Shown: piece by piece, positions 5,343-45,272 of the stretch | How the letters are laid out: each line of letters opens with the position of its first letter | Numbering within the stretch: position 1 is the stretch's first letter | From: Prorocentrum cordatum | Lineage: Eukaryota | Direction: 5' to 3' | DNA: 54,933 nucleotides | Assembly (NCBI GenBank): GCA_963575745.1 | Contig: CAUYUJ010000198.1 | Span: 62,001-116,933 of the forward strand | The notes under the pieces: model-generated | The model's input: only the letters and a program-made list of their open reading frames with translations | Databases searched by the model: none | Told to the model about the DNA's origin: nothing | Made by a program: the position numbers and the translations under genes

Positions 5343-6292
5343 GTAGGGGAATCCCAACAGGAAATCCACAACAAACAGATGGCTCACGCATGTTCGAGGC
5401 CGTCTTGGAGTGGCCTCTTCTTGCCCGTGCTGATTGTTGCTGCTGCTTGCTGCTTACCGCGTGCTGGAGCAGCTTGCTGCAGCTGGCTGCTCCTGCTGCT
5501 TGCTGCTGCCTACTCTCCTGCTCCGCTGGCCTTGCTGCTGCTGGCTCTGCCGCTACTTTTGCTGCTCTGGCTGGAGTGCCTCGTGATACGGGCGGAATCT
5601 CTCGGAGCCTCGCGGGTCGTCTTGGGTCCCCCATGGGGCCTGCACGCCCGGTTCGTTGGCGGCAACCTTCGGGCCGGAGATGCGCCGCCCTGGCGCTCTC
5701 TTGAAGCCCCTTCTTGCGTTGGGCCCTCGTCATAAGCTCTCGATCGCCCTCTTCAAGCCGTCTTGGGATTCCTAGGGGCCTCGCACGGCCCTTCTGGGAG
5801 GTTCAGGGGGGTTCAGCCAAGCCGTGGGACTATCACAGGGCTGCCTGGAGCCATCTCGGAGCCGCGTGAGGGGGGACCATCGTGGAGGGCAGCCAGGGGC
5901 CAGTTGGGACATCTAAGGAGCGCGTGGGGCTCTCGTGAAAGCTCTTGCGGGCGTCGTGGGCCACTCTGAAAGCCCATGGGGCCCTTCTGAGAGCTGCCTG
6001 GAGCGCAGAGCTGGAGAGTATGCAGGATGCCGATGGGAAGCCGCAGACTTTTGCCTCTTCAGGGTCCAAGGCAAGGCAATTGTGGGCGGTCTGGGGGCCC
6101 TCGTGGCGGTACAGCGAGGCGGCTTGGGGCGTCTGGGGCCATCAACCTGGCCTGTGAGGTGAACGGGGCCCTCGGCGGCTGACTGAAGGGCCTTTGGGCG
6201 GCCCTGTGGCGTGTCTGGGATTGCCCGGGCGACTTTTGGCCAGTTGGGCGAGCGCCCTTTCGTACGTGGTGGCACTGGCATTGTAAGTGAGA

Positions 6293-6321
6293 CTAGGGCT
6301 GGCATTTGGACCACATTGACG
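6293..6321 (-). mobile_element. Degenerate Helitron-like 3' terminus joined to a TCTC-PPR-like start
   Basis: ...GTCCAAATGCCAGCCCTAG|TCTC ACT TAC AAT GCC AGT; the hairpin is eroded. Confidence 0.45.
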
Positions 6322-6439
6322 GCAGGCCGCCTAATCTGACAGGAGTTCTCCTGGCAGCCACGAAAGCTTACTCGCATGCAAGGTTTATGATTGCTTGTCT
6401 GCCTGGCTTCTGGTCTGCCCTCCTGTTAACGACGTTGCT

Positions 6440-7590
6440 AGCCTGGTGGCCAGCCGTTTGCCGCTGCTTGTTGTTGCTTGCCGCTGCTTGCTGCTGGTTA
6501 CTCCGATTGTTGCTCATTGCCATCCTTGTCAAGTAGTTGCTGGTGCGTGCTGCCTCCTACTACCACTCGGTGCTGCTACTTGCTGCTAAATGATGCTGTT
6601 TGGTTGCTGATGCGTGCTGTTGCGCTGCTGCTGCTGCTGCTGCTTCTGCTGCTTCTGGGTGCTGCTATTCATGCTCGCCGCTGCCGCTTGCTGGTGCTTC
6701 TTGTTACTGCTTGGTGCTGATGCTTCTGCTTACTGCGTAAGACTTGCTGGTGAGCCATGGTGCTAGTGTATGCTAATGCTGCCTGCTGCATGCTGCTGCT
6801 TTGCTGGTGCTGTTAGCTGTTGTTTGCTGCTCATGTTGGTGCTTGCTAGTGCTGGGGTTTCTGGGGGACCTCTTGATGCTCTCTCGAGCGATCTTTGGAG
6901 CCTTGAGGGCAACGCGGACCATCTATCACTGATTAACCTCATGAGGCTCTCTGGAATGAGATTGTGATCAGCTTGGATTCCTGCAGCCCCAGGGAGAGAA
7001 ACTAGCAGAGATATCACGGGGCCAACCTCTGGGCCAAAGGAGGGCTATCTGGTGATGTAGGATGCCCTTGGCCGGCTCTTGTGTGGCCTCCGTGCCACCT
7101 GGGAATTCCTGTGCCTCGCGGGTCCCTTCTGGGAGGCCTGGGTGCTTTGTGGAAGGATCTCGGGGACACTCTAATGCCGCCTTGGAGTCGTCTTATAGAC
7201 TAGTCTTGGCCACTGCATAATGCTGCCTGGTGAGACGTGGCGCTTCTTGTGTTGCTGCTGCTTGGTGCTGGTTGATCCTGCGTGCCTGTCACTGCGTGCG
7301 TGCTGCTGCTCGCTTTCGCTGGTGCGTGCTCTTGCTGTTGCTTGCCGTTATTTGTTTGCTGCTGCTGCTGCTGCGTGTGACTGCAGGGTAATGCTGACTG
7401 CCAGTTCTGCTTTCTCTGTGCTGCTGCATGGTGCTGGAGCCTGCTGCCTGCTGGTGCTTGCTGATGCTGCGTGCTGCCGCTGTTGCTGTTTGCTCTGTGC
7501 TGCTGCCGATGTTCGCTGGTGCTGCTTGAAGGCTGCAGGGTGATGCTTCTCTCTCGCTGGACTTCTGCTGGCTGACGCAACCTGCTGCTC
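6440..7590. repeat. Degenerate (CTG/TGC)n low-complexity modules
   Basis: Tracts at 6440-6860 and 7220-7590; related tracts at 5430-5570, 12590-12770, 21575-21665, 35325-35550, 36055-36185 and 45370-45440. Confidence 0.85.
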
Positions 7591-8788
7591 GCGATCGGAT
7601 CGGGGGGCGGAGAGGAAAGAGCCAGTGTGAGGGGGGAGGGAGAGAGGGAACAGCGGGCGATAAGGGAGGAGCGACGGCCGGAGCGAGAGGGTCCACGAGG
7701 GCGGACAAAGAACCGAGGAGAGGGCGAGTTGCCGGGACGGACGAGGCCAGGAAGGAGGCATGCATGCAGCGAGGAGGAGCGGGAAGGGAGGAGCACAGAG
7801 CGAGGCGAGTGTGGCGACGAGCGGGGAACAGAGGACGGGGAGCGTGAAGTGCGGAGCAGGGCACGGAGAAGCAAGGAGGGAGGCTCGAGGCGCGACCCGC
7901 ACATAGCCTCGACGCGCGTGCGGTCCACACCTTTGTCCCTCTTGGGTTGCTCATGGGGCCCTCTCGAGGCCAACTTTGGGGCCTCTTCAGCTCCCCTGGG
8001 GGCCGCTCGAGGAGCGGCCGACGCACGAGTCTCCCGGAGGGCTCGGCGCGAGGGGGCCGAACACTCCGTCTCCTCTTGCGTCGCTCTCGAGGCCAACTTG
8101 GGGCCTCTGCGGAGCCTTGATCCCCTGGGGCTCTCCCGGGCCTCCTGAGGCCATCTGGGCGTGCCTCCCGGCTTTGGGGGCTCCGAGGCGGTCCGCAGAG
8201 GTGGGGGGTGACTTGAGCCATCTCGGGGCGGCATCGGGCCGTCTTTGGGATGTCTTGGGGCCATCTTGGAGGTCGGCTGGGCCTGGACTCATATTGGGCT
8301 ATCTTGGGGGCGTCTTGGGCCCTCCTGGGAGCTCTTGTGACCCCTGGGCCATCTTAGAAGCATCTGGGATACTTCTTGGAGCCACCTGGAGCTGAACAAC
8401 AAAACAGGAGTATCGAAGACACGTTCAACAAACTATACGCTTTCTTCGTCTTTCTGAGACGCTGCACCTGGACCTGGCTCTCAAGGTGGCGCATTTTGTC
8501 CGAACCACCCTCGCCACCTATGAGCAGCGAGCAATGATGACCCGCGCCTCCGCCTCTTATGGCCCCTGCGCGGGGCCATCTTGGAGGCTGTTGGGGCCAC
8601 CTCGGCGCCATCTGGTGGCGTCCTGTTGGGTCCAGGGAGCATCTCGGAGGCCTGGTTGGCGGTCGTGGGCGCTTTTGGGAGGACCGCTTGGGCCGCATAG
8701 GCCTCGCAGAGGGCTGCTTGGGGTGGTTTTGGGGCATCCCGGTGCCCGCCCTTCTGGCAAGCGGTATCGCCGGCATTATAGCAGAGAG

Positions 8789-8991
8789 GACGTTGGGCTC
8801 GAGTTTTGACTCGCTCATCTCGCTGATCAGCGCGAAACCCCAGTGCCATTGCTGCCCCGCTGCGCACGCTTCTATCCCTGAGCTGTAGCTGATGAAATCG
8901 GGCTCCGCCTCTCGCATCTCGTTGATCAGCACCACAGCCCGCTGCCACTGTTTGCCCTTCTCGCACGCGCTGATCCCAGCGTTGTAGCTGA
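8789..8991 (-). pseudogene. PPR fragment, about 2 motifs
   Basis: SYNAGISACEKGKQWQRAVVLINEMREAEPDFISYSSGIEACAAGQQWHWGFALISEMSESKLEPNV. Confidence 0.88.
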
Positions 8992-9020
8992 CTAGGGCTG
9001 ACCCGTGGACTCCTTCCACG
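8992..9020 (-). mobile_element. Helitron-like 3' terminus (hairpin + CTAG|T)
   Basis: CGTGGA-AGGAG-TCCACG GGTCAGCC CTAG|TCAGCTACAAC. Confidence 0.65.
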
Positions 9021-10179
9021 ATGTCTTTCTGGCGGAGATTTTGTCGAATACCTATACGCACTACGGCGGCCGGGGCGGTGGCAGCGAGACCGCACCTTCG
9101 TGTCCGAGCTCTTGAAGGGCTCCAGCAGCTTGGCCCTGGTGCACGGCTCGTTCGCCCCCCTCATATTGAGGGCAATTTTGAAGTCTTTCGGGGATGTGCG
9201 TCAAGGTGGAAGCCCATCTAGGGCGTCTCAGAAGCGCCCGGGAAAGGGCTCGGGAGGCCCCCGGGGAAAGCCACTGGGAGCGCCTGGGAGGCTCGGAAGG
9301 ATCTCCAGGGGGGGCCCAAGAGAGCTTCAAGAGGGTGTGACATTCAATCAGATCTTACAAGAAACCGCTGTTGGGTCTGACGTGCTCCGCTACGCTGGAG
9401 AGGCCGTTTTGTTGGAGTTCTGTGGGAAGCGAAGCTCTCTCGGGCGTGTCAGGAGCGCCGGTCCCCCTCTCTTGGATGCAGCCCCTACTGGCCTCTTGAA
9501 GGGCTGAGGGCCTCTCAGGTCCTCGCGCCTCCGCCTCCTCCTCCTCCTCCTCCTCCTCCTCCTCCTCCGCCTTCTTGCCTCGATGCTGCATGCCCTGGAT
9601 CTTGGACAGTCAATCGTAGACCCTCGGAGCATCGACAACGGCCGTTGGGGCCTGCGTTCTGCCTCTCACCTCTCGTCCGCCCCCCCTCGGGAATTCTGTA
9701 GCCACTTAGGGCCTCTTGGGGGCCGTGTGGGGGGCCTTTTGGGGCTTCTTTTCGGCTTCGAGGGGCCTCTTGGGGCCCTCTCGGGCTCTGGTCGGTGCCG
9801 TTTGGGCAATCTCGGAACCGTCTTGGACCGTCTTGAGCGCCTCTTGGGCCGTCTTGGGGCCGTCTTGGGGGCCCATTGGGCCATGTTCGGGCCATCTTGG
9901 GTCGTCTTGGGACGTCTTTGGGGCTGCCTTGGGTGCCTCTTGGGCCGCCTTGGGCGCCTCTTGGGCCCGTCTTGGGACCCTGATGAGGGCATCGCGGGAC
10001 GATCGTGGAGGGCTCTGTGGCCGTCGTGGACGCGTTGGAGCCGAAAAAACACGATAATGTCAAACATGTCAGTTTTCCGACGGGAACGGGGAGTAGGTTG
10101 TCGAGCGAGGCTGGTGGGGATACTTTTTTGATCTGACTCAATCGGACGGGCTCGCGCTGCGTCCCGCGTTAGAACTGCT

Positions 10180-10285: not shown

Positions 10286-10314
10286 CTAGGGCTGACCCGT
10301 GGACTCCGTCCACG
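10286..10314 (-). mobile_element. Helitron-like 3' terminus (hairpin + CTAG|T)
   Basis: CGTGGAC-GGA-GTCCACG GGTCAGCC CTAG|TCACCTACAAT; perfect 7-bp stem. Confidence 0.7.
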
Positions 10315-11300
10315 ACATCTTTCTGGAATGGTTCTCGGAGGAACGGCGCAGATTGTACCGAAAATCTAAAAACACGGCGGCGGCTCGGGCGGCGGCAGCG
10401 AGACCGCGCCTTCGTGTCTGAGCTCTTGCAGCGCTCCAGCAGCTTGGCCCAGCGCACTGCTCGTTCACCCCCCTCCTATTGATGGCAGTTTCGAAGTCTT
10501 TCGGGGATGTGCGTCGAAGTCGAAGCCCATCTGAGGCGTCTCAGGAGTGGCCGGGGAAGGGCTCGGGAGGCCATCGGGGAAAACCACCGAAAGCGCCAGG
10601 GAGGCTCGCAAGGATCTACAGGGAGGGCCAACGAGAGCTTCAATATTCTGTAAAAAAATTAGAGAAACCGCTGCTGGGTCAGCCATCACCTCCGGGCACG
10701 CCTTGATGGTGCAATCCAGTCGCATCACCGCCAACGGGAGGGTTTGTTCGCCGTGTCCCATTCTGTTCGCCCAGAGGGTCTGTGGAGGCCTTCGGGCGAA
10801 CAGAACGGGACAGGGCAAGGAATGGGGAAGACTTGTCCGAATCTCCTGGGCCCCCCCAGGTGCTCGTCCGAAGAATGCGGAGATGTCCCTGGGTCATATC
10901 AATTGGCTGCTGTCCAAGGGGTCCGGTCTGGTTGGCCCGAAGAGTTTGCCAAGGTCCCTGGGGGAACAGAATGGCACAGCATATCGGGCAAAGGCGGGCG
11001 GTAGCTGGCCTGTCAGACCCGGCGTTCGTCTTCTGCCCAAGCGGCGCGGGGCCCACGGGCCCCAGCGTTGGCGGCCCGCTGGGTTTCCTTTTGTTCGCCC
11101 ACAGGGTTGAAGGAGGCCTCCAGGCGAACATAATGGGGCAGGACAATGAATGTGGGAGACTTGTCGCAAGCTCCCAGCCCCCCCAAGTGTTCGCCCGAAG
11201 GGTGTGGGGCCGCGTTGGCTCCCTCAAAGGGCCGTCGGCAATCGTCGATCCTACGACGACTCCCCAACAGAGAAACATCGAAGGCCCTCGGAGCGTCCAA

Positions 11301-12268
11301 CATTGTTCTTTTGTGCCTTCGATATGCCGGTCGCCTCTCGTCCGCTCCCCCCCTCCTGGAAGCAATTCTCATGCCACTTAGGGCTTCTCGGCCGTTTGGG
11401 GATCTCTTGGGGCGTTTTTGCCTGCGATATGCCTGTCGCCTCTCGTCCGATCCCCCGCTCCTGAAAGGAATTCTGAAGCCACTGATGGCTTCGTGGGGGC
11501 CGTTTCGGAGCCTCTTCGGCCTTCTTTTGGGCCTCCCGGGGGAGCTCTTAGGGCCCTCTCGGGCCGTCTTGGGTGCCTCTTGGGCCGTCTTGGGGCCGTC
11601 TGAGGCCCGCCTCGGCGCCTCTTGGGCTGTCTTGGGCCGTCTTGGGCCGCTCCTGGGGCCGTCTTGGGTGCCTCTTGGGCCGTCTGGGGCGCCTCCTGGG
11701 CCGTCCTGGGGCCGTCCTGGGGCTTCTTGGGGCCGTCTTGGGGCCCTCCTGGCCCGTCTTGGGGCTCTCTTGGGGTCCTCTTCGGCCGTGTTGGAACGGT
11801 CGGGGGGACTTCTTGGGCCGTCTTGGAGCGTCGGGAAGCCGAAAAGGCGAGGAGGCCGAAAACATCGGAAAACACGGTAGAAATCGACGATTTCTGTCGC
11901 TCGGGGCCCTCTTGGGAGGCCTCTTGGGAGGCCTCTTCGGGCGTCTTGGACGCCTCTTGGGCCGTCTGGGGAGAATCTCGGGCGTCTTGGGCCCATCTTT
12001 AAGCGTGTCAGGGCTCTCCGGGGCCGTCTTGGGGGCTTCTGGGGGCCCTCTCGACATGTCCTGGAGCCTGCCTGGGCGGCCCGGGGCGGCCCGGGGCCAG
12101 CCCGGGGCGGTTTTGAGACATTGGAGCCTGGGCCCTTCTGGCACGCACTGGGCCCTGCAATGTAGTAGAGACTAAGGCTGACCCGTGGATTCCGACCACG
12201 ACATCCTTCTGTAATGGTTTTAAGAGGAACGGCGGAGATTCTGCCGAAAACCCATCAGCACGGCGGCG
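11301..12268. repeat. ~970-bp dispersed duplication, copy 1 (copy 2 at 22138-23108)
   Basis: Colinear, highly similar sequence from CATTGTTCTT.TGTGCCTTCGATATGCCGG to CACGGCGGCG. Confidence 0.9.
12172..12200 (-). mobile_element. Helitron-like 3' terminus variant (TTAG) at a head-to-tail junction
   Basis: CGTGGTCGGAATCCACG GGTCAGCC TTAG|TCTC TAC TAC ATT GCA GGG CCC AGT GCG TGC CAG AAG GGC. Confidence 0.6.
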
Positions 12269-12488: not shown

Positions 12489-14279
12489 TGGTTGTGGGCA
12501 CCGAAGGACTGACCCGTGGACTCCGTCCACGAAATCTGCACGAACTGGCATCTGATGGAGGGGGCCGACCTCGCACTCCGCGCATGCTACTGCGTGCTGC
12601 TGCTTGCTGTCGCTTTTGCGTACTATTGGTAGTGCTTGAGGCCGCTGCTGCTTGTTCTTGCTGCTTATGGCTGCAGATTGTTGCTGATGGCCAGTTCCCT
12701 TCTACCCGCTGTCTGCCGCTGCTTGCTGCTGCTGCTGCTGTGTGCCGCCGCTGCTGCTGCTGCCTGCTTCGTGCCCACGGAAGAGACCGATGCTGCCCCA
12801 AGGCGCTCGGAATGTCGCACGGTGGACTGTGCATGGGCATGGGGGCTCACTGTGGACGCGCAGGGAGCCACGTACTTTGGGGCGCCGTCTCCGCGCCCCT
12901 CTGAGATCAGACTGTGTTGGGAACTGTGCTCCCTGGAGGCCTCTAGTGTATCTCGCCTCACTTGGGCGGCAGCGGCGAAGGGCGCCCTGGAGCTGGGAGG
13001 CAATAGTAAAGGGAAGTAGCGTCCATGTGTCTGTCCATTGGTCGGCGATCTTTCGCTCGCGCCCGCACCCACGGAGGAGGGCAAGGCTCCCTATTCGGCC
13101 ACTGATGGTGGGCGCTTCCTTCTCCTTGGGAACCGTTTGGGGGCCTCTCGTGGTTTCTTCTCAGCCTTCTAGGGCTTTTTGGGGGCCCCTTTGGACTGTC
13201 CTGCGGCCTCCTGGGGGCCTCTTGGGGCCCTCTTGGGTACCCCTTGGGCTGTCTTGAGGCCGTCTGAGGCCGTCTTGGATGCCTCTGGGGCCGGCTTGGG
13301 ACCGTCTTGGGACCGTCTTGAGCCGTCTTTGGCCGCTCTTGGGGCTGCCTTTGGTGAATCTTGCGCCGTCGTGGACGCCTCAGGAGCGGTCCTGGGGCCG
13401 TCTTGGGCCGTCCTAGGGCCGTCTTGGGCCGTCTTGGGGCCCTCATGGGGCGCTCCTGAAGCGTCCTGGGGCGGTCTTGGGGGCGTGAATTGTTCTCTTG
13501 GACGCTTTGAAGACGAAAAGCGTGGGAATTGCGAAAATTTGCTCCCGCTAAGGATTGGGGCGATTTTTGCTAGTGCGGGCACTCTCGGGGCTTTTCTTGG
13601 AGCCCACTTGGAGCGTTTTGGGAGCCTCTTGGGCCATCTGGTGGCTATCTTGGGCGTCTGCGAGCGCTTTTGGGTGTGGGGCCGCTCTTGGGGGGCCCCG
13701 GGGTCGTCTCGGGGCCGTCTGGGGGCCCTCTGTTGGGCCCCCAGGTCGCCAGCGCGCCTCCAGGGTAGCTCCACAATGACCGCCCGCCGGCCTAGAGTCG
13801 GCGGGAACGATTCTGGGCCACTGCGCCGCCGGCCCAGAATCGGCGGGACCGATTCAGGGCCACCGCGCCGCCGGCCCAGAATCCCGCCCGACGCGCCCTG
13901 GACGGCAGCGCGCGCTTCTGGGGTCGGCCGAGGCGGTTCTGGGCCACCAGACGAGCGAAACACGCCATGGCCCCAAGAGGCCGCGGAGAGGGCTCCAGAC
14001 CAACAAAAAGGCTAGGAATTTCGGGCCACATCCGGCAGGGAGCGCCAAACAAGCATCAGAGCCCCATGGTGCGCTGGGAGCCGTTTTGGGACCGTTTGTT
14101 GCCGTCTTAGACTATCTTTGGCTGCTGTTGATGCTGCCTTCGGTGCTTCGTGGGCCTTGATCTTGGGGCCTCTGGGGGTCGCTTAGGAGCCTCTCAGCGC
14201 TTCTTTTCGGTCTCATGGAAACCTCCTGGGATCCTCTTGGGCTGTCTCGGGTGCCTCTTGGGCCGTGTGGTGGCGATCC

Positions 14280-16071: not shown

Positions 16072-16101
16072 CTAGGGCTGACCCGCGGCCTTCCCGCCGC
16101 A
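16072..16101 (-). mobile_element. Helitron-like 3' terminus, GC-stem subfamily
   Basis: GCGGC-GGGAAG-GCCGC GGGTCAGCC CTAG, followed by the PPR-like QDGRTSARGGADRWQRTGSL. Confidence 0.55.
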
Positions 16102-17372
16102 GAATCTGCCTGCCATGGTGTGGACTCCGCACTGGGGCCGCTCAGGCGCCCGGTGCACGGGAGGATCAACGATAGGACGCTGGAGTAAGTGTCCATTTGG
16201 TTTACTTGGGGAGAAACTGTCCATTTGGTTTACTTGGGCTGTGCGTTAGGAGCCTTCTCGGGGTGCCTGGACACGCTTTGGGCCTTCTTCAGGGCATGCT
16301 CGGGACATCTCTGTGGCTCCTATCAGCTTTGGGGCCATTTGGGGCGCCCTCCTCGTCCTCCCCTGGATCCTTCATCCCGTCGATCTTTCGGTGTGTCTGG
16401 ACCCTCTTGGGGCCTCCTTCGGGTCATGCTCGGGACATCTCGGTGGCTTTTATCGGCTTTTGGGGCCATTTTGGGCGTCCTTGTCCTGCTCCTCCCCGCG
16501 ATCCTTTACCCCGTCGATCTTCGATCGTCAATCGTCGACGCTCCCCAAGAGACAAGCATCCAAGGCCTCTTGGGGGCCGTGTGGGGGCCTCTTTTCGTCC
16601 TCCTGGGGGTCTCTCGGGGCCATCTTGGGCCGCCTGGAGTGCCTCTTGGGCCATCTTGGGCCATGTGGAGCCGTCTGGGGCGCCTCTCGGGCCATCTTGG
16701 TGCCGTCTAGGGGCCACCTTTAGAAGCAATGTTGAGGCTACATGCCTCTTGGGGGCCGTTTGGGTGCTTCTTTTCGGCCTCCTGAAAATCACTTGGGCCC
16801 CTGTTGGGCCGTCTTGGGTGCCTTTTGGGCCGTCTTGGGGCCATCTGGGGGCGTCTTGGGCGCCTCTGGGGCCGTCTTGGGGCCGTCTTCGGTCATTATT
16901 GGCTGCTCTTGGGGCTGCCTTGGGTGCGTCTTGGGCGCCTCTGGAGCCGCCCCGGGGCCGTGTGGGGCAATTTTGGGCCCCCCTGCGGGGCTCAAGGCGC
17001 ATCTTGAGGCGAGCTGGGGGGCCTGTATAGCCGCCTTGGACGCTGTGAGGACGAAAAAAACGGAACATTATGAAAATGCGCGTTTCCCAAAGGGAATGGG
17101 ACAATTTTGGCTTCTTGGGTCCCTCCTGGAGGCCCTCCTGGGCCGTCTTGGGAGCCTTCTGGCCTGCCTTGGGGGCCTGTGGCTGTCTCGAAGCTCCCAG
17201 GGGTGCTCTGAGACCGTCTTGGCGCCTCCTCGAGCCTCTCGGAGTTGTCCCGAGGCTGTCTGAAGCCGTTCTTGGGGCAGATGGACCCCCCACTGAGCCG
17301 TTTTGGGGTCGGAACCAACGGTCAAGATAGAGACCCTTCTCGCACGCAAAGGTCGCTGCATTGGAGAAGAGA

Positions 17373-17401
17373 GTAGGGCTGACCCGCGGCCTCAGGCCGC
17401 A
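17373..17401 (-). mobile_element. Helitron-like 3' terminus, GC-stem subfamily (CTAC variant)
   Basis: GCGGCC-TGA-GGCCGC GGGTCAGCC CTAC|TCTC TTC TCC AAT GCA GCG ACC TTT GCG TGC GAG AAG GGT. Confidence 0.6.
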
Positions 17402-19780
17402 GAATGTGCCTGCCACGGTGTGGGCTCCGCACTGGGGCCGCTCAGGCGCCCGGCGCACGGGAGGATCGACGATAGGACGCTGGAGTAACTGTCCGTTTGG
17501 TTTACTTGGGAAGTACCTGTCCATTTGGTTTACTTGGGTTGTGCGTTAGGAGCCTTCTTGGGGTGCCTGGACACTCTTTGGGCCTTCTTCGGGGCATGCT
17601 CGGGACATCTCTGTGGCTCCTATCGGCTTTTGGGCCATTTGGGATGCCCTCCTCGTCCTCCCCTGGATCCTTCATCCCGTCGATCTTCGTCAGGAGCCGT
17701 CTCCGTTTGTCTGGACCCTCTTGGGGCCTCCTTCGGGTCATGCTCGGGACATCTCTGTGGCTTCTATGGCCTTTGGGGGCTATTTTGGGCGTCCTCCTCC
17801 TGCTCTTCCCCTCGATCCTTCATCCCGTGTCTATCTTCGATCGTCAGTCGTCGCCGCTCCCCAAGAGACAAGTATCCAAGGCCTCTTGGGGGCCGTGCGG
17901 GGGCTTCTTTTCGTCCTCCTGGGGGTCTCTCGGGGCCCTCTTGGGCCGTCTTGGGTGCCTCTTGGCCCGTCTGGGGCCTTCCTTGGGCGCCTCTGGGGCG
18001 CCTCTAGGGCGGCCTTGAGACCGTCTTCGGGCTGTCTTGGGGCGCTCTTGGAGCTGTCCTGGATGCTTCTGGGGCCGTCATGGGCGACTCAAGAGCCGTC
18101 CTGGGGACGTCATGGGTCGTCTTGGGGCCTTGAAGTCCTCGGCCCGCCCGGCGGGGCCTGATGCCCTAGCACCAGTGTTTGTTTTCGTCGCGGACAGGCT
18201 TCCCATGGTGCCCTGTGATGCGGTGCACTGCCGTCTGGAGACTTTGAGCACTTCGGATTTCGCGCGTTGCGCGCGCGAAATCAGCACTGCGTGGAAAGAG
18301 GCTGCACTGCGTATGCGCGTCTGCCCTGCGAGGCACTCCAGTGTCCTGCGGCCAGAGCCGGGATGCCGCTGCAGAAAGACGGGCGGCGCAGAGGACGTGA
18401 AGGGCCGCGGGGGAACCATCGAGAGAAAGGGCTCGTCAGACAAGCTCCGAGACGGCAACGCCGTGTGACTGAATTCCCAGTTGCGCGGCGCGTCTTCTAT
18501 TTGCGCGCGAGGGTGCACGTCCTCGCCGAGGTCGCGCGGCGTGGCGGGCTCAGACACTGAGCCCCCCATCGGCCAGCCCCTCGCGCGAGCCGCGGGAACT
18601 CCGCCGATCACACGGCGTCACCTTCCCGCCGCAAATCTGCTCGCTCGGCGCAGTTCTCGGGGCGAGCGCACGTCGTGCTCGGGCACTGCGACCGGGCGCG
18701 CCGAGGTGGCCGCGCGCCTCTCGCGATCTTGAGACGGCGACAGCACTGCAGCTCGCGCGTGGGAGCGCTCGCCTCACAGGGGCGCCAGCTCGAGCGGTGC
18801 CTCGAGGAGCAGACGCAACCCTCAAAAGCTGGCCTGTGTTTGCTTCGACGTCTAAATGCGTGTCCTGGCGAGTCCACAGGGGCGCCGACGCCAGTGCTCG
18901 GCGCGCTTGCGAAGCTGGCGGACTCCAGCGCGGGCGCCTTCAGGAAGCTGGCTGCTCTCCAGAAATGCCCACACTGCCCCCCCACCACCCGAGACGCGTT
19001 GAGCGTGGACCTGCGCTGCGCGCCAGATGCTGATGCGATGGCTTTTCGCCCATGGGTTCCCCGCTCGCAGTGCCCAAACACATGGACTTGACAGCGGGGT
19101 GGGTCCGAGAAAGATGGCGTTGCGGAGCATGCTCGTGCGGCGGCCATTTTGGCGGGATGAGATGGTTCGCGCGTTGATCGAGCTGTTTGCATGCATTCTT
19201 GAAAACCCGCGCATGCATGGGCTGATTCTTGCCGGGGCCTCTAGGATACAGTGGCCCGGTATACACATATAGAACGCACATCCATGCGCAAAATCTTGCT
19301 CGGATGTCTACAGACGGAAATCCACCGATGTCCTGGCGCGTCTCGGGCGACGCGATCACGGAGAGATTCCACTGGACTGGGCCGTGCATCTGTTTGTCCG
19401 AGGGTGGGGGGGGGGGCCAGGGGGAAGGCGCCCTCGATCCCGATGTCCTTCGGGGCCTTTCGGTAGGTCCTCTCTCTGCTTTCCGAAATGAGGAAGGGTA
19501 GCTTGGCGCGCGGCAGGGGGCTGGTCGGCTGCGTCGCGGGCTCGCAGCTGCCGAGAGAGAACATGCATTAGGCGCAGCGCGCTTCGAGCACCCCAATGCC
19601 GCGGACACTAGATCACATCATGATCCACTAGGTGCGCATATTGTAAGCGCGTTGGGCAGCTTGGCTTTGAAGTACTGTAATGTTTAGGCTAGTCTCGCAT
19701 GCTGTCTGCAACGCGTACTACTCGCGCTGCGTGTAATCGTAGCTTGTGTCTGGAATCTGCGTGGAAAGATGCTGCCCTCC

Positions 19781-22037: not shown

Positions 22038-22066
22038 CTAGGGCAGACCTGTGGACTCCGTCCACG
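22038..22066 (-). mobile_element. Helitron-like 3' terminus (hairpin + CTAG|T)
   Basis: CGTGGAC-GGA-GTCCACA GGTCTGCC CTAG|TCAGCTACAAC. Confidence 0.68.
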
Positions 22067-22137
22067 ACATCAGCTCGACGTGGCGAGGGGTGTCTGGGCA
22101 AGCGCGGGGGGGTGCGGCTGCAGGGCCGAAAGGCAAT

Positions 22138-23108
22138 CATTGTTCTTGTGTGCCTTCGATATGCCGGTCGCCTCTCGTCCGCTCCCCCCCTCCTGGAAGC
22201 AATTCTGAGGCCACTTAGGGCTTCGTGGGGGCCGTTTGGGGATCTCTTGGGGCGTTTTTGCCTGCGATATGCCTGTCGCCTCTCGTCCGCTCCCCCGCTC
22301 CTGGAGGGAATTCTGAAGCCACTGAAGGCTTCGTGGGGGCCGTTTCGGAGCCTCTTCGGCCTTCTTTTGGGCCTCCCGGGGGGGCTCTTAGGGCCCTCTC
22401 GGGCCGTCTTGGGTGCCTCTTGGGCCGTCTTGGGGCCGTCTGAGGCCCGCCTCGGCGCCTCTTGGGCTGTCTTGGGCCGTCTTGGGCCGCTCCTGGGGCC
22501 GTCTTGGGTGCCTCTTGGGCCGTCTTGGGCGCCTCCTGGGCCGTCCTGGGGCCGTCCTGGGGCGTCTTGGGACCGTCTTGGGGCCCTCCTGGCCCGTCTT
22601 GGGGCTCTCTTGGGGTCCTCTTCGGCCGTCTTGGAGCGGTCGGGGGGACTTCTTGGGCCGTCTTGGAGCGTCGGGAAGCCGAAGAGGCGAGGAGGCCGAA
22701 AACATCGAAAAACACAATAGAAATCGACGATTTCTGTCGCTCGGGGCCCTCTTGGGAGGCCTCTTGGGAGACCTCTTCGGGCGTCTTGGACGCCTCTTGG
22801 GCCGTCTGGGGCGAATCTCGGGCGTCTTGGGCCCATCTTTAAGCGTGCCGGGGCTCTCCGGGGCCGTCTTGGGGGCTTCTGGGGGCCCTCTCGACATGTC
22901 CTGGAGCCTGCCTGGGCGGCCCGGGGCGGCCCGGGGCCAGCCCGGGGCGGTTTCGGTGCATTGGGGCCTGCGCCGTTCTGGCACGCACTGGGCCCTGCAA
23001 TGTAGTAGAGACTAGGGCTGACCCGTGGACTCCGTCCACGACATCTTTCTGGAATGGTTCTCGAAGGAACGGCGCAGATTGTACCGAAAATCTACAAACA
23101 CGGCGGCG
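22138..23108. repeat. ~970-bp dispersed duplication, copy 2
   Basis: Matches 11301-12268. Confidence 0.9.
23012..23040 (-). mobile_element. Helitron-like 3' terminus at a head-to-tail CTAG|TC junction
   Basis: CGTGGAC-GGA-GTCCACG GGTCAGCC CTAG|TCTC TAC TAC ATT GCA GGG. Confidence 0.7.
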
Positions 23109-27419: not shown

Positions 27420-27448
27420 CCAGTGTGCACCCGTGGATGAAATCCGCG
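27420..27448 (-). mobile_element. Divergent Helitron-like 3' terminus
   Basis: CGCGGAT-TTC-ATCCACG GGTGCACA CTG, then GCAGCTACAAC; same spacing and PPR position as the other copies. Confidence 0.45.
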
Positions 27449-32157: not shown

Positions 32158-32186
32158 CTAGGGCTGACCCGTGGACTACGTCCAAG
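32158..32186 (-). mobile_element. Helitron-like 3' terminus at a head-to-tail junction
   Basis: TGGAC-GTA-GTCCA CGGGTCAGCC CTAG|TCGC ACC TAC ATT GCA GGC ATG CGT GCG TGC GAA AAG GGC. Confidence 0.62.
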
Positions 32187-33484
32187 AAATCTGCACGAAC
32201 GTTGCCGAAGTGAGATGTTTCCCACTCCCCAAAGCCCTCCCCCGGGAGCCTGGCCCGGTCGATTTGGAGGGGGGGGGGAGAGGTCCCCCGGGAGGTGGGT
32301 GAACGCGCGTGGGGGGGGCAGAAGGCCCCAAAACAGGTCAAAAGGCATGGGGTCGTCCCCGAGGGCCACGAATCGCTGAAAGATCGATCCAAAACGCCCA
32401 TGCTGGCCTCCCGAAAGCCCAAGAAGCCCTCAAGACGCCCCAAGAAGCCCCCAAGAGGCGCCCCAAGAGGGCCTCCTGAAGCAAACATCGTCCCAGTCCC
32501 ATCGGAAAACGTGCGCGTTTTTAGCATAGACGGCCCAAGAGGCCGTGAAGATCGCCCCAAGACGGGCCAAGAGGCCCCCAAGAGTGCTCCAAGACGACCC
32601 AAGAGGGCCCCAAGACGGCCCAAGAACCCCCCTAAGACGGCCCAGGAGGGTCCCAAAACAACCCCAAGAGGGGGCCCAGTGTGGGAACCCGAACAAACAT
32701 TTCGAGTCATCCACCCGAAGACGCCTCCGGGTTGCCCCAAGGAGCTCCCAACAGGCCCCCAGGGAGCCCCAAGATGGCCGCAACAAGCCCCCACGAGGAC
32801 CCCAGGAGGCCTCCAGGAGGCCCCCAAGAGGTTCAAACAACTGCCTCCAAGACGCCCCCGAGACGCCTCCCACGAGACCCCATCAGCCATCCGAGTGGCC
32901 TCAGACTCGCAACCCAAGCACGGTGGCGGGATGCCGAAAGCCATTCGATAATCATTCGTCGGGTGTTTTGACATATGCCCTCTATCTGTATGCGTGGGTT
33001 CTCGACCGTTTCCCCACGCGTGCCCGTTACCCTGTGAACTACCCAACCCATGTGCATCAAGTGGCAAAAGGAGCTGGCCCAAACTTGCCAGGACAGTGAC
33101 AGTGCAGGCGCCGTTATATGTTGTGCAAGCTACATGGGATGCGCTCACGTGCCACGATTCACAAGACAACAACGGAAGGACAAGGAGCGAGGGCCCAGGC
33201 TTGAGGAGGACACGCGGGAACGACGGGCATGAGAAGGACGCTTTGGGGGCCGAACCGTCAGCGCGGCAGCAGCAGAGGGAAGGTGGCAGGGGGCAGAGGA
33301 CCACGACGATAGGGACGGGAGGAGACCGAAGAGTATTGCTTTTGTCGGTGGTACGCCAAAGAGTCAGCGCTGCCTGCGCCATGTCGCCGCGGCGCTCGAA
33401 CACATTATTCAACCTGCTGATAGTGAGTGCAATAACCACGCAGGCGCCGCCGCGGCAGCACGTGCCAGACCTCCTCCCCCAGTT

Positions 33485-36350: not shown

Positions 36351-36423
<73 letters not shown>

Positions 36424-36424
36424 A

Positions 36425-36495
<71 letters not shown>

Positions 36496-36564
36496 AATGA
36501 TGATGATGATGATGATGATGATGAGGAGGAGGAGGAGGAGGAGGAGGAGGAGGAGGAGGAGGAG
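36252..36564. repeat. Compound microsatellite (GGA)n-(GAT)n-(GGA)n
   Basis: Directly visible. Confidence 0.97.
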
Positions 36565-37937: not shown

Positions 37938-37966
37938 CTAGGGCGAACCCGTGGACTTCGTCCACG
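37938..37966 (-). mobile_element. Helitron-like 3' terminus (hairpin + CTAG|T)
   Basis: CGTGGAC-GAA-GTCCACG GGTTCGCC CTAG|TTAGCTACAAC. Confidence 0.7.
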
Positions 37967-39033
37967 ACCAGCAAGTCCCCCTGGCGCGCCTCCACGTTGG
38001 GTCCCCGCCCAGGAAGAAGTCACCCCGAAGCCTTCGGTGACTTTTTCAGGCCGCCTTTCCGAAGTTGGATGGCGGGCGTTTCCTCCTCTTCGTCCGCCTT
38101 CCGCTCCACGTCCGCCTGGACAGCAATCGAAGCGTCACAGACGGCTATGGTGGGTCTGCGGTGTGCCTGTCGCCGCTTGCCTGCTCCCCCTGGTTTGAAC
38201 AATGTTGAAAGTACCTGGGGCCTAGAAAAAAGTCACCGCTCGCTCTTGGGAGCTGTGCCTGGGAGAGCTCTACGCTGCGGCTCGCTCTTGGGAGCCTTGG
38301 TGAGAAGAGCCTTGTACTTTACCGATCGCGTTTTTAATGGGCGTCTCTGGGCCTGCTTGGTGGTCCTTGTGGGTGTCTTTTTCGAGCCATTCTGATGCTT
38401 TTTGGGGCTGCTCTGGGAGCGTTTTGGGACGTCTCGGGGCCATTTTGGGCCGTCACGGGGCGTCCGTGAGGCCTTGGACCGTCTTGGAGCTCTCGTGGGG
38501 CTGCCTGAGGCTGCCTTGAGGGCCTCTTAAAGCCCCTCGGAGCTCTCTTCAGGCCGTCTTGGGGTTCTGTGAGGCCGCTTCAGGGCTCTCTGGCGTCGTC
38601 TTGGAGCTCTTGTGGGCCGTCTTGGAGCCCTCTTAGGGGCCGCTGGCGTCTTCTTGGGGCGATTTGGGAGGCCTCTTGGCGTGTCCTGGGCCGCTGAGGA
38701 GCACACAAGGCGGGCATGCTGAAAATATACGTTTTCCTATAAGAATTTGACGATTTGTGCCTCTTTGGCGTGCGCTCGGGGCCCTCTTGGGGCGTCTTTG
38801 CGGCCTCTTGGATCGTCGTGGAGCCCCCCCGGAAGGCTTCGGGCCCTCGTGGGCCGTCTCGGGACCCACTGAGGCCGTCTTGAAGCGCTCTTAGAAAGTC
38901 TGAGAACCCCTCTGGAGCGCCTCTGGGACCGGCCTGAGCGATTCGGCCCCGTGGTGGCGCCGTAAAGGGGCGACTTTGTCCACTTGAGGCCCTGGGCTTC
39001 TCGCACGCGCTTCCACCGGCCATGTAGGAGAGA

Positions 39034-39060
39034 CTAGTTTGCTCGGGCTAGCAGTCGAGC
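39034..39060 (-). mobile_element. Helitron-like 3' terminus with an unrelated hairpin sequence
   Basis: GCTCG-ACTGCTAGCC-CGAGC AAA CTAG|TCTC TCC TAC ATG GCC GGT GGA AGC GCG TGC GAG AAG. Confidence 0.5.
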
Positions 39061-39589
39061 GCGCAACAGAGAATAGTGACAACTGGCGGTCGCATAGACT
39101 CCAGGAATCTGCACTGATCGCGCTGGTCCCATACGACTCGGGGCACAGACTGCGGAGAATCGAAATTAATCCTTTGGCGCTCTCGGGGCAAGCTTGTGTC
39201 CTGCTCGTGGTCTGAGTGTGGCCCTCTTGAGCTTTCTTGGGGCCCTGGTGGGCCTTCTTGGTGCTACCTGGGCGTTTCTTAAAGTTTCAGAGTGGCAATG
39301 TTTGGGGCGTGAGGGCAGGTTGGGGAGCTCTTGGGAGGCCATGATGGGGCGGTCTCGGGCCATCGTGGAGACAGCTCTGGGCTGGCTTGGAGGCCAGACA
39401 ATGGAGTCCCAGGACATCTTGGGAGCGTATGAAGCCCTCTTGAAGCCTCTTGGAGCCTCCCTGGCGCTGTCACAAACATGGGGACCCCATCTGAAAACAC
39501 TCTTGCGAGCGAAGACTAATATAGCTAGATGCACTGAGCACAACGTCTTCGCCAGCATGGATCGCAGACAGTGAAGTAGTCCACTGTAC

Positions 39590-41999: not shown

Positions 42000-42690
42000 A
42001 GCGATAGTGACATCGCTAGTGCTATCGATAGTGAGGTCCACTGAGTGAGATCGAAAGTGACATCGAGCGTAAGATAGATACTTAGTGAGATCGATATTGA
42101 TGTTGGCAGTGATGTCAATTGAATGAGTTCGATTGCGAGATCGACAATGGGATCGATAGCGAGATCGATAGTGAGACCGATAGTGACATCGATAGGATGA
42201 GATCGATAGTGAGATCGGTCGTGAGCATGGATCGTGTGCTCGATAGTGACATCGATAGTGAGATCGATTGGGTGGCATGGCCAGTGAGATCGATCAAGAG
42301 GTCGGCTGTGGTATCGAAATGGCGATCAATCGTGATTTCCATCGTGAGATCGATTGAGTGACATGGATAGTGAGATCGATGGTGAAATCAAGAGTGGCAT
42401 CGATAAATCGATGGTGAGGTCCATCGTGAGATCGGTAGTGCGATCGATAGTGAGATCGATAGTGATACCAACAATGATACCGATCGTGAGACCGATCGTG
42501 AGAACAATCGTGAGATCGATCGTGAGACCGATAGTGAGATCGACAGTGAGATCGACTGTGAGATCGATAGGGGTACCACTAATGATATCGATCGCGAGAT
42601 CGATCGAGTGACATGAACTGTGCGAGCGATAGTGAGCTTGATAGTGATATCGAATAAATGAGATGGATGGTGAGACCAATCGTGAGATCG
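42000..42690. repeat. Degenerate 12-bp GATC-rich minisatellite (GATCGATAGTGA)n
   Basis: Recurrent GTGAGATCGATA; translates as IVRS repeats. Confidence 0.9.
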
Positions 42691-44408: not shown

Positions 44409-44606
44409 GGGAGCGTAAGACCCGGGTACGGGGGACTCGGAAATCCCCGACGAGGTCGTCAAAAAAATGACGAGGCCGAGCCTGCATTTTGACGAGGCCT
44501 CCCGCTGCAGACATCCCACGAAACTCCTCCTCGTCAAAATCCGAGGCGCGGTCGTCAAAAAACGATGGCGAACTCGAGTCCCGGCAAACCCGGGTCTTAC
44601 GCTCCC
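44409..44606. mobile_element. MITE-like foldback element (198 bp)
   Basis: Perfect 19-bp terminal inverted repeat GGGAGCGTAAGACCCGGGT / ACCCGGGTCTTACGCTCCC, plus inner GGGACTCG/CGAGTCCC and TTTTGACGAGG/CCTCGTCAAAA pairs. No clear TSD. Confidence 0.5.
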
Positions 44607-45134
44607 CCAGGGGGACCACCCAGCGAGCGGGACGCCCACGAGGCGTCCAGGACTGGCCACCAAGCGGGCAGCAGGCGGAACCTCGGCGGTCGAGTTCGAT
44701 CCCTTGGGTAACTCAAGTGATGAGGACCTCCAAAGGCAAGCATTACGTGGGGAACACACAAACAAAACATTGCCACAACAACGTGGGTCTAAAACATTCG
44801 CCCTTTCGCCAGAGGCCCAACGCCCCAAGTAGCTTTCAAGATTTGGGGCTTCCTGGAGGACCTCCGGGGCTCCTCTTGGGGCCCTGTGGGACTTTCTATG
44901 GAGGCCAGCTTGAAACCCCTTCGGCGACTTGGGGCACTCTTGGAAGCCTGCTGGGCCATCTTGGAGCCCCTTCGCGGAGCACTTGGACCGTCCGAAGGCG
45001 CTCCTACGGGTCTCTCTGGGGTCTCGTGGGGGATCCCAGGCGCTTCTGCGACCGGCTGTGGACCCCTCGGAGCTGGAGGTACCCGTCGTCAGTCGTCAAC
45101 CCCGCGAGCGCTTCAGCTGGTATTTTGGAGGAGA

Positions 45135-45240
45135 TGCCGTCGGGCTCCAGCTTCGCCTCCAACATTTCGCGAAGCAGCCCCAGCGCCCGCTGCCACTGCT
45201 CGCCCTTTCCGCACGCGCTAATCCCGGCGTTGTAGCTGAT
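45135..45240 (-). pseudogene. PPR fragment, 1 motif
   Basis: ISYNAGISACGKGEQWQRALGLLREMLEAKLEPDG. Confidence 0.9.
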
Positions 45241-45242
45241 GG

Positions 45243-45272
45243 CTAGGGCTGACCCGTGGCCTACCAGCCACG
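45243..45272 (-). mobile_element. Helitron-like 3' terminus
   Basis: CGTGGC-TGGTAG-GCCACG GGTCAGCC CTAG|CCATCAGCTACAAC. Confidence 0.6.

What the first reader, a model, noticed from the sequence alone, without database searches (positions are those of the whole stretch)
5343..45272. Candidate new system: PPR-targeting Helitron-like elements stacked in one orientation
Seen: about 14 copies of a ~29-nt motif, all on the minus strand (tetramer starts at 5343, 6293, 8992, 10286, 12172, 16072, 17373, 22038, 23012, ~27420, 32158, 37938, 39034, 45243). The consensus is CGTGGAC-GGA-GTCCACG-GGTCAGCC-CTAG, mostly followed by T, and every copy is followed by PPR or PPR-like sequence at the (I)SYNAG position. 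Known: Helitrons end in CTRR with a 16-20 nt hairpin about 10-12 nt from the end, begin with TC, and insert between A and T without a TSD. Here the 17-nt hairpin lies 12 nt from the end, and CTAG|TC AGC TAC is what insertion into the Ile codon A^TC AGC TAC AAC would give. Inference: a family of non-autonomous rolling-circle elements prefers, or co-mobilises with, PPR coding repeats. That could help explain large PPR-fragment expansions in such genomes. I am not aware of a description of this. No Rep/helicase is encoded in the window.
Basis: partly seen in the sequence, partly recalled or inferred. Interest (0 to 1): 0.88.

Follow-up and report, generated by a model that had tools for sequence, protein, structure and literature searches.

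The report
Conserved hairpin ends before PPR repeats
In a dinoflagellate PPR repeat array, each long stretch of intervening DNA ends in the same 30-base hairpin-plus-CTAG signal just before the next PPR repeat; this looks more like a multiplied intron or spacer module than a rolling-circle transposon.

Summary
A hairpin-N8-CTAG motif recurs only on the minus strand: 10 tail matches on minus, 0 on plus; the hairpin pattern gives 10 hits against 0.19 expected. Of the 14 listed sites, 11 carry a clear motif, 1 is partial and 2 are doubtful. One unlisted copy sits at 12503-12531. All 14 listed sites are followed, in register, by a PPR repeat or a decayed PPR start.

The window is a dinoflagellate; the closest named proteins are Prorocentrum cordatum PPR models (66-76% identity). 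The locus alternates intact PPR blocks (1-3 repeats) with 0.95-6.1 kb intervening units. Each typical unit starts with a decayed first third of a PPR repeat and ends in the motif.

The Helitron reading fits only the 3' end. The supposed 5' "TC" terminus is the start of that PPR-homologous piece. The base to the left is A in only 2 of 6 cases. There are no terminal inverted repeats, and no Rep/helicase in the window.

P. cordatum gene models start exons inside the motif tail ("PLV|SY" in 7 cases, "CEK|VSY" in 2), and its introns average 4.7 kb. My best reading (about 0.5) is an intron/spacer module multiplied by homology-driven duplication among PPR repeats. A Helitron-like element (about 0.15) or another intron-forming transposon (about 0.2) is not excluded. 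No RNA data or whole genome was available.

The parts
8992..9026 (-). Motif copy (hairpin 9004-9020, then GGGTCAGCC, then CTAG at 8992-8995), followed by 2 PPR repeats (8991-8788)
10286..10320 (-). Motif copy with a perfect hairpin at 10298-10314, followed by 1 PPR repeat (10285-10181)
12172..12206 (-). Motif copy ending in TTAG, followed by the 38-nt 'TCTCT' decayed PPR start
12503..12537 (-). Unlisted motif copy with a perfect hairpin at 12515-12531. It has no CTAG and is followed by an (ACG)n run, not by PPR.
16072..16106 (-). Motif copy with a compensated stem (GCGGC/GCCGC), followed by a very decayed PPR start in register
17373..17407 (-). Motif copy with a compensated stem (GCGGCC/GGCCGC), ending in CTAC. 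Its upstream 620-640 nt are 89% identical to the 16072 copy, and the similarity stops at the terminus.
22038..22072 (-). Motif copy followed by 2 PPR repeats (22037-21828)
23012..23046 (-). Motif copy followed by the 38-nt decayed PPR start. It lies in a 975-nt duplicate (22134-23108) that is 95% identical to 11298-12268.
27420..27454 (-). Degenerate motif copy (tail ends CTGG), followed by 3 PPR repeats (27418-27105)
32158..32192 (-). Motif copy followed by the 38-nt decayed PPR start
37938..37972 (-). Motif copy followed by 1 PPR repeat (37935-37831)
45243..45278 (-). Motif copy whose hairpin is 1 nt longer, followed by 1 PPR repeat (45237-45133)
6293..6320 (-). Partial motif (3' arm and tail only), followed by a decayed PPR start
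5343..5375 (-). Doubtful motif ending in CTAC, followed by a run of decayed PPR repeats (5339-4857) that contains an in-frame stop
39034..39066 (-). Doubtful motif (only the CTAG and weak similarity), followed by a decayed PPR start
10286..12171 (-). Example of one intervening unit: a 38-nt decayed PPR start, then 10-11-nt CCAAGACGGCC-type repeats, then a high-copy piece (10299-11236), then the motif

Best explanation
The window holds a Prorocentrum-type dinoflagellate PPR gene-fragment array on the minus strand. Intact PPR blocks of 1-3 repeats are separated by 0.95-6.1 kb intervening units. A typical unit is one module made of three parts: (1) the first 36-38 nt of a PPR repeat, in a decayed 'TCTCT' variant; (2) repeat-filled spacer; (3) a conserved block of about 30-35 nt, consisting of a 7-bp hairpin, GGGTCAGCC and CTAG.

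I read the module as an intron or spacer with its flanking half repeat. The motif is its 3' splice region, offering the acceptors TCAG| and CTAG|. A G|GC or G|GT site at the end of the half repeat is the likely donor.

The module multiplied by homology-driven processes among PPR repeats: tandem or segmental duplication, unequal crossing-over, or gene conversion. Its two PPR-homologous flanks served as the arms. This explains three things: why every copy sits at the same codon phase in front of a PPR start, why all copies point one way, and why the repeat just before each spacer is cut off at the same point.

Shown: the anatomy, the shared 2-nt insertion, the PPR register, the high copy number and the dinoflagellate origin. 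Inferred: that the units are spliced, which sites are used, and that the spread was by recombination rather than by a transposase. Much of this particular locus looks decayed (frameshifts and a stop codon).
For: Origin. The best named relatives of a 2-repeat block are P. cordatum PPR models at 66-76% identity. P. cordatum has 59.7% genomic G+C, introns averaging 4,709 bp, donors GC 51.4% / GT 24.7% / GA 23.8%, and exons of about 240 bp (passages of PMC10666404). The window is about 53-67% G+C, and its 13 units average 2,988 bp.

Layout. nhmmer with a PPR profile finds 10 full repeats (E 1e-22 to 1e-30) and partial repeats covering only profile positions about 2-39, all on the minus strand. Each intact block is followed by such a partial repeat.

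Shared history. Five partial repeats are 38 nt to the G|G[CT] site, against 36 nt in 4 of 4 intact repeats. This 2-nt insertion is shared, so the partial repeats are copies of one another.

Duplication. All 64 self-matches of at least 200 nt are direct. They include 11298-12268 matching 22134-23108 at 95%.

Acceptor use. In 66 P. cordatum models, 7 PPR starts are preceded by xPL[VL] (CC-CTA-GTC read as exon, which implies the acceptor TCAG|). Two are preceded by ISACEK|V (half repeat joined to a new repeat, which implies G|G..CTAG|). Neither PLV nor ISACEK|V stood among the examples printed for the 150 other listed proteins (printed examples only). One PL-type hit (P0037) occurred under the looser pattern.

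Independent copy. Contig L002 shows CTAG|TCACCTACAGC followed by 3 PPR repeats. Its similarity to the window copies starts at the hairpin in 8 of 10 motif-spanning alignments.

Structure. The hairpin is kept through compensating changes.
Against: - No RNA evidence: no RNA run holds the stretch.
- AG is followed by T or C here, not by G as in 79.7% of P. cordatum acceptors.
- Splicing at G|GC after the 38-nt variant would shift the frame.
- Constraint on the repeats is weak. pN/pS is 0.46 over 66 pairs of 12 repeats (one mis-registered repeat was dropped), and third codon positions are only slightly more variable. The repeats below 5343 carry a stop codon. The locus may therefore be non-functional.
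- Most copy pairs share only about 30 nt upstream of CTAG. The 16072/17373 pair loses similarity exactly at the terminus. Interiors are high-copy elsewhere, at depths of about 50-500 against about 3. All three are also what a transposon family with conserved ends would show.
- The P. cordatum models are predictions. Their frame-hopping (74 + 23 out-of-frame PPR stretches in 66 models) shows that the predictors struggled with these loci.
Confidence: 0.5

Rival explanations
1. Non-autonomous Helitron-like rolling-circle elements. Each unit is an element running from 5' TC to hairpin-CTAG 3'. It inserts at A^TC in front of a PPR start, or lies head to tail with another element.
For: - The 3' end fits. 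A 17-nt hairpin lies 12 nt from the end, CTAG ends 10 of 14 sites, and T follows at 11 of 14.
- The stem is kept by compensating changes.
- Different units share little beyond their ends (for L002).
- The 3' boundary is sharp in the 16072/17373 pair.
- Head-to-tail junctions reading CTAG|TC, CTAC|TC or TTAG|TC occur at 6 places.
- Units begin with TC in 11 of 13 cases.
- Interiors are high-copy, and unitigs of other runs stop at 10284 and 10299, at the terminus.
- Helitron-derived introners are in print, as about 1% of classified introner families (PMC12130899, passages).
Against: - The 5' 'terminus' is 36-38 nt of PPR-homologous sequence in PPR register.
- The left flank is A in only 2 of the 6 units that follow a PPR block (T in 3, C in 1).
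- Helitrons, as I recall, have no target preference beyond AT, yet 14 of 15 window copies and L002 sit at one PPR position.
- Neighbouring units are not concatemer-like copies.
- No Rep/helicase in 60 ORFs.
- The word 'Helitron' does not occur in the main text of the P. cordatum genome paper or of the 2024 dinoflagellate genomics review.
Confidence: 0.15
2. Another intron-generating transposon (introner) or homology-guided mobile module. Its 3' end carries the AG acceptor, and it spreads among PPR repeats by a mechanism other than rolling-circle replication.
For: - Introners are abundant in dinoflagellates, and P. cordatum introns are reported as enriched in them.
- Ends are conserved while interiors vary.
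- Copy number is high.
- Position and phase are fixed, as has been argued for introner insertion-site requirements (abstract and first part of the preprint).
Against: - None of the 13 units shows 5'/3' terminal complementarity above shuffled controls.
- No target-site duplication beyond a possible TC.
- The Symbiodinium pattern (a 4-nt GHNN repeat that serves as donor, with an inverted repeat ending at the 3' splice site) does not fit, because the exon after the AG starts with TC.
- No transposase or RT in the window.
Confidence: 0.2
3. The motif is coding. It reads in frame as ..DVVDGVHGSALV before SYNAG.
For: It is in frame and open in most copies.
Against: - The 17373 copy has an in-frame stop in the loop.
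- The 45243 copy has a 1-nt length change in the hairpin.
- Changes are compensatory in the stem rather than codon-like.
- No protein in two large libraries matches the 64-aa translation.
- In DNA of 62% G+C, long open frames are common.
Confidence: 0.03

Closest known systems
Dinoflagellate spliceosomal introns in tandemly duplicated gene arrays (P. cordatum type: long introns, G|G[C/T/A] donors, AG acceptors)
   Same: Unit lengths of 1-6 kb. The units end in AG. A G|GC or G|GT site sits at the end of the half repeat. The array runs in one direction. P. cordatum PPR models start exons within the motif tail.
   Different: AG is followed by T or C, not G. About 30 nt of structured 3' end is conserved across otherwise unrelated interiors. 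The 38-nt half repeat breaks the frame. No transcript evidence was obtained here.
Helitrons, and Helitron-derived introners (PMC12130899)
   Same: A subterminal hairpin 12 nt from a CTAG end, T after the end, TC at the start, no inverted terminal repeats, no clear target-site duplication, and variable interiors.
   Different: The 5' end is PPR-derived. The left flank is mostly not A. The position within one repeat family is fixed. No RepHel is known for it.
Introner elements of dinoflagellates (Amoebophrya, Polarella, Symbiodinium; PMC7789003, bioRxiv 10.1101/2020.10.14.339549)
   Same: Multi-copy intervening sequences with conserved ends in a dinoflagellate, with hairpin-forming sequence near a splice site.
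   Different: Those elements pair their 5' end with their 3' end and have 3-8-nt direct repeats. Here the hairpin is local to the 3' end, and no 5'/3' pairing exceeds chance.
PPR repeat proteins of dinoflagellates (Pfam PF13041, PF01535)
   Same: 35-residue repeats of the SYNAGISACEKGGQWQRAL.LL.EM type, with Pfam hits on 6 of 60 ORFs.
   Different: Blocks of only 1-3 repeats, interrupted at a fixed phase. The repeats are accompanied by truncated and frameshifted copies and show weak constraint.

Membership tests
Helitron (non-autonomous) | 3' terminus CTRR | tested here: met
   CTAG ends 10 of the 14 listed sites. The others end in CTAC (2), TTAG (1) and CTGG (1). The defining features listed for this family are recalled or taken from the finding text.
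Helitron (non-autonomous) | Hairpin of 16-20 nt about 10-12 nt from the 3' end | tested here: met
   A 7-bp stem with a 3-nt loop ends 12 nt from the end. It folds in 6 of 6 copies, and 3 of 7 pairs show compensating changes.
Helitron (non-autonomous) | An own 5' terminus beginning with TC | tested here: inconclusive
   TC starts 11 of 13 units. However, it opens 36-38 nt of PPR-homologous sequence in PPR register, so it cannot be told apart from a PPR start.
Helitron (non-autonomous) | Insertion between host A and T, without target-site duplication | tested here: not met
   The left flank is A in 2 of the 6 units that follow a PPR block (T in 3, C in 1). The right flank is T at 11 of 14 sites. 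Uninterrupted PPR-PPR junctions read A|TC at 3 of 4 in the window and at both in L002.
Helitron (non-autonomous) | A RepHel (HUH-Y2 + helicase) partner sharing the termini | not testable with these tools
   No whole genome is held. None was found in the window: Pfam on 60 ORFs gave only PPR and one sub-threshold ZrgA hit.
Dinoflagellate spliceosomal intron | Ends in AG, usually followed by G | tested here: inconclusive
   Two AGs are present (TCAG| and CTAG|). The next base is C or T, which puts these in the minority class in P. cordatum, where 79.7% of acceptors are AGG.
Dinoflagellate spliceosomal intron | Donor G|G[T/C/A] | tested here: inconclusive
   G|GC or G|GT sits at the end of the half repeat in 7 of the 10 partial repeats scanned. 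An eighth, at 23720, was read. The same site exists in 4 of 4 intact repeats scanned. No such donor lies at the exact 5' edge of the units.
Dinoflagellate spliceosomal intron | Removed from mRNA with the reading frame kept | not testable with these tools
   No RNA holder was listed. With the 38-nt half repeat the frame would shift.
Introner element (inverted-repeat type, as defined in PMC7789003 and PMC10666404) | Inverted repeats of 8-20 nt between the two intron ends, plus direct repeats of 3-5 nt | tested here: not met
   The best 5'/3' complementarity in each of the 13 units is matched by 23 to 200 of 200 shuffles.
PPR repeat (Pfam PF13041 / PF01535) | 35-residue helical repeat matching the profile | tested here: met
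   PPR_2 E-values reach 1.3e-12. There are 10 full DNA-level repeats.

The most novel reading that the evidence does not exclude
The half-repeat + spacer + hairpin-CTAG module is a mobile, intron-forming element that homes specifically to the start of PPR repeats. It would do so either as a Helitron-like element with a PPR-derived 5' end or by using its PPR-homologous flanks as recombination arms. On this reading it drives the large, frame-hopping expansion of PPR fragments seen in Prorocentrum genomes.
Probability: 0.25. Interest if true: 0.75.

Novelty: new variant of a known kind. Interest (0 to 1): 0.4.

Why it matters
Dinoflagellate genomes are huge, rich in introns and full of duplicated gene fragments, and how their introns and repeat families spread is an open question. 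This locus shows a module with a conserved, structured 3' end that always lands at one codon phase of one repeat family. The related P. cordatum annotation is full of PPR models that hop between reading frames.

If the module is spliced, the motif is a candidate structured 3' splice element. If it is mobile, it would be a repeat-family-specific intron generator. Either way, annotation pipelines should treat these PPR models with caution. If it is only a duplicated, decaying array, the finding is ordinary.

Tried and rejected
- Whole-genome search of the window's own assembly: none is held.
- Sequencing runs: no RNA holder was listed, and the best DNA holders held 0.05-0.12 of the sampled words. 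Laying four runs gave depths and contig ends but no usable joints; the joints listed lie in simple repeats.
- Scan of viral contigs for the 19-mer: 0 hits.
- Scan of metagenome contigs: 2 hits. L001 is a bacterial chance match. L002 is real.
- Earlier findings of this scan: nothing, in 3 look-ups.
- Rfam: nothing at gathering scores over the whole window. Only four far sub-threshold miRNA-like hits, on an internal palindrome at 10746-10823 and at 11774-11811.
- Protein libraries searched with the 62-64-aa translation of the unit's 3' end, as a way to sample more copies without bias towards PPR: 0 hits in both.
- Idea that the motif derives from the 3' third of a PPR repeat: not supported. The mean alignment score is 2.7, against 3.35 for shuffles.
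- Idea that the spacer just after the half repeat is a decayed remainder of the repeat: nhmmer finds no such extension except at 27098-27049, which covers profile positions 3-52.
- Terminal inverted repeats: none above chance.
- Resemblance to the dinoflagellate spliced leader: I compared this from memory only and saw no convincing match. It was not tested with a tool.
- The literature search for Emiliania intron repeats was a wrong lead. The organism turned out to be a dinoflagellate.
- I read none of the supplements of the P. cordatum genome paper. Its supplementary note and tables on introners may bear on this finding.
- The search for Helitron + dinoflagellate + Prorocentrum listed no relevant title among the 12 shown.

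Full report
**1. The observation**

The hairpin pattern CGTGGACNNNGTCCACG, allowing up to 2 mismatches, occurs 10 times in the window. A hundred dinucleotide-preserving shuffles give a mean of 0.19 and a maximum of 2. The pattern is palindromic, so I took the strand from the tail. GGGTCAGCCCTAG with up to 2 substitutions occurs 10 times on the minus strand and never on the plus strand.

I printed all 14 listed sites and aligned them together with the extra hits.
- Eleven sites have a clear hairpin plus tail: 8992, 10286, 12172, 16072, 17373, 22038, 23012, 27420, 32158, 37938 and 45243.
- Site 6293 keeps only the 3' arm and tail.
- Sites 5343 and 39034 are doubtful.
It has no CTAG and runs into an (ACG)n tract rather than into PPR.
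- Two further hairpin-like hits (34105 and 41682) lack the tail.

The hairpin is the minimum-energy or centroid fold in 6 of 6 copies folded as DNA, with z-scores from -1.4 to -2.7. Over all 18 aligned rows, 80.2% of 126 cells pair. Shuffles give 74.6%, and 2 of 500 reach the observed value. Slid partners give 29-42%. Three of 7 pairs change on both sides, for example GTGGAC/GTCCAC becoming GCGGCC/GGCCGC. This support is modest but real.

**2. What follows the motif**

PPR repeats of the type SYNAGISACEKGGQWQRALGLLREM lie on the minus strand. A DNA profile built from ten intact repeats finds those ten again as full repeats (E from 1e-22 to 1e-30). It also finds a set of partial repeats that cover only profile positions about 2-39, all on the minus strand.

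Intact blocks follow the motif at 8992 (2 repeats), 10286 (1), 22038 (2), 27420 (3), 37938 (1) and 45243 (1). The other listed sites are followed by a decayed PPR start. At 16072 the PPR is barely recognisable but in register: TSARGGADRWQRT against ISACEKGGQWQRA, which I read.

**3. The organism**

No genome is held for the window. A search with a 2-repeat block gave 504 PPR proteins with E-values of 0.001 or better. The highest identities (66-76%) were all to Prorocentrum cordatum models. Other dinoflagellates (Polarella, Symbiodinium, Effrenium) lay mostly at 45-60%.

From passages of PMC10666404, P. cordatum has:
- 59.7% genomic G+C;
- introns averaging 4,709 bp;
- exons of about 240 bp;
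- donors GC 51.4%, GT 24.7% and GA 23.8%;
- AGG acceptors in 79.7% of cases.

The window is about 53-67% G+C. Run X1 holds unique parts of the window without any difference at depth 2.5-3, so it contains the same organism at low depth.

**4. Anatomy of the locus**

Each intact block is followed directly by a partial repeat, then by spacer, then by the motif, and then by the next PPR start. I therefore divided the region into 13 intervening units of 950-6,101 bp, with a mean of 2,988 bp. Two units often lie head to tail between blocks.

Five partial repeats measure 38 nt from TC to the G|G[CT] site, against 36 nt in 4 of 4 intact repeats. One measures 37 nt. A further one also scanned as 37 nt, but my script started one base inside it. 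The shared 2-nt insertion shows that the partial repeats are copies of one another and did not decay independently.

The spacers are filled with strand-asymmetric repeats of 10-11 nt of the CCAAGACGGCC type, of which the largest family has 210 copies. They also hold other tandem repeats. All 64 self-matches of at least 200 nt are in direct orientation.

Upstream of CTAG, most pairs of copies share only about 30 nt. The exceptions are:
- 10286 and 8992, which share from -357 to +90;
- 10286 and 12172, which share from -163;
- 16072 and 17373, which share 620-640 nt at 89%, ending exactly at the terminus.

The 5' edge of that last match fades into the 10-11-nt repeats.

**5. Copy number and outside copies**

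In run X1, pieces at 10387-10562 and 10861-11054 lie at depths 495 and 416, against about 3 for unique sequence. Bins over other unit interiors lie at about 50-10,000, while the bins from 18314 to 21483 lie near 0. Contigs of other runs stop at 10284 and 10299, which is at the terminus.

A metagenome scan with the 19-mer gave one bacterial chance match (L001) and one true copy (L002). L002 reads CTAG|TCACCTACAGC followed by three PPR repeats. Its similarity to the window starts at the first base of the hairpin in 8 of 10 motif-spanning alignments. Upstream it shares only simple repeats.

**6. Testing the Helitron reading**

The 3' end fits well: the hairpin lies 12 nt from a CTAG end, and T follows at 11 of 14 sites. 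The rest does not fit.
- TC does start 11 of 13 units, but it opens 36-38 nt of PPR-homologous sequence in PPR register. It is therefore not an independent terminus.
- The base to the left is A in only 2 of the 6 units that follow a PPR block.
- Neighbouring units are not copies of each other, so they are not rolling-circle concatemers.
- Pfam on the 60 longest ORFs finds only PPR and one sub-threshold ZrgA hit. There is no Rep, helicase, transposase or RT.
- Removing the units does restore a perfect 35-residue period. But that follows automatically from blocks that begin at a repeat start and are followed by another repeat start, so it is not evidence for insertion.

Inverted-repeat introners are also excluded. 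None of the 13 units has 5'/3' complementarity above shuffles.

**7. Evidence for an intron-like role**

Among 66 P. cordatum models of this family:
- 7 in-frame PPR starts are preceded by xPL[VL]. That is CC-CTA-GTC, the motif tail read as exon, which implies the acceptor TCAG|.
- 2 are preceded by ISACEK|V. That is a half repeat joined to a new repeat, which implies a G|G.. donor and the CTAG| acceptor.
- Neither PLV nor ISACEK|V stood among the examples printed for the 150 other proteins (printed examples only). One PL-type hit, in a Polarella protein, appeared under the looser pattern.

The same models contain 74 + 23 stretches that are PPR repeats translated out of frame, against 0 in the other 150 proteins. 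This is what a 38-nt half repeat would cause. It also shows that these are troubled predictions, not proof of splicing.

In the window, a G|GC or G|GT site ends 7 of the 10 partial repeats scanned, but it also exists in all 4 intact repeats scanned. An eighth, at 23720, I read.

Constraint on the repeats is weak. pN/pS is 0.46 over 66 pairs of 12 repeats, after I dropped one mis-registered repeat. The repeats below 5343 carry frameshifts and a stop codon.

**8. Best reading and its rivals**

I favour a module of half repeat, spacer and hairpin-AG end that multiplied by homology-driven duplication or gene conversion. A donor with a PPR(1-38) arm on the left and a PPR arm on the right, recombining with two adjacent repeats, would replace positions 39-105 of the first repeat by the spacer. 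That is exactly the layout seen, and it would carry the 2-nt insertion along. This mechanism is inferred, not shown.

A transposon family with conserved ends remains possible. The points in its favour are the shared ends with unrelated interiors, the sharp 3' boundary and the high copy number. Helitron-derived introners have been described (PMC12130899, passages). If the Helitron reading were right, this would be a new variant of a known kind rather than something without precedent.

**9. What remains open**

I had no RNA data and no whole genome. I could not see P. cordatum genomic DNA or the supplements of its genome paper. The decisive tests are a genome-wide census of flanks, transcript junctions, a search for RepHel, and presence/absence polymorphism between strains.

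Noticed in passing
Proteins P0008, P0012, P0025, P0031, P0074, P0107 and others: P. cordatum PPR gene models alternate in-frame repeats with repeats translated out of frame (LQRWDQRVREGRAVAAG....GSARARR..). There are 74 + 23 such stretches in 66 models and 0 in 150 other listed proteins. This points to systematic mis-annotation or to a decayed family.
   Followed up: partly
window 8200-31000 (minus-strand sense), also 3847-4155, 32387-32906 and 40237-40359: Degenerate tandem repeats of 10-11 nt (period 21), of the CCAAGACGGCC type, fill the spacers. The largest family has 210 copies. In a few stretches (for example 32387-32906) they lie in the opposite orientation.
   Followed up: no
window 4857-5342, minus strand: A run of about four decayed PPR repeats without intervening units. 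It has frameshifts and an in-frame TAG (..EAKF*SSAISFDA..), so it looks like a pseudogene.
   Followed up: partly
window 23684-23735, minus strand: A partial PPR start (profile positions 3-39) inside a spacer. It is preceded by a remnant of a PPR end (..CCACAACGTC) rather than by the hairpin motif, so the long unit 27105-23012 is composite.
   Followed up: partly
window 10750-10816 (also 10958-10978, 11089-11105, 11188-11201): 28-nt inverted arms and related short sub-repeats inside the piece that is high-copy in other runs. They give far sub-threshold miRNA-like Rfam hits.
   Followed up: no
window 14279-15911, 24600-26000, 33560-34890, 36209-36594 and 42108-42614: Further tandem arrays with periods of about 300-350, 180, 101, 9 and 12 nt.
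   Followed up: no
window 1343-1530, 45895-45996, 47460-48115, 9520-9609, 33456-33614 and 40856-40987: Long (GA)n, (CGT/GTC)n and (CCT)n microsatellite-like tracts.
   Followed up: no
L002 1100-1259: After three PPR repeats, the metagenome contig has a short non-PPR piece (..GCAATGCGCAGGTAACGATCAA) and then a new PPR start (TCAGCTACAATG..). This is a much shorter interruption at the same phase and has no hairpin.
   Followed up: no
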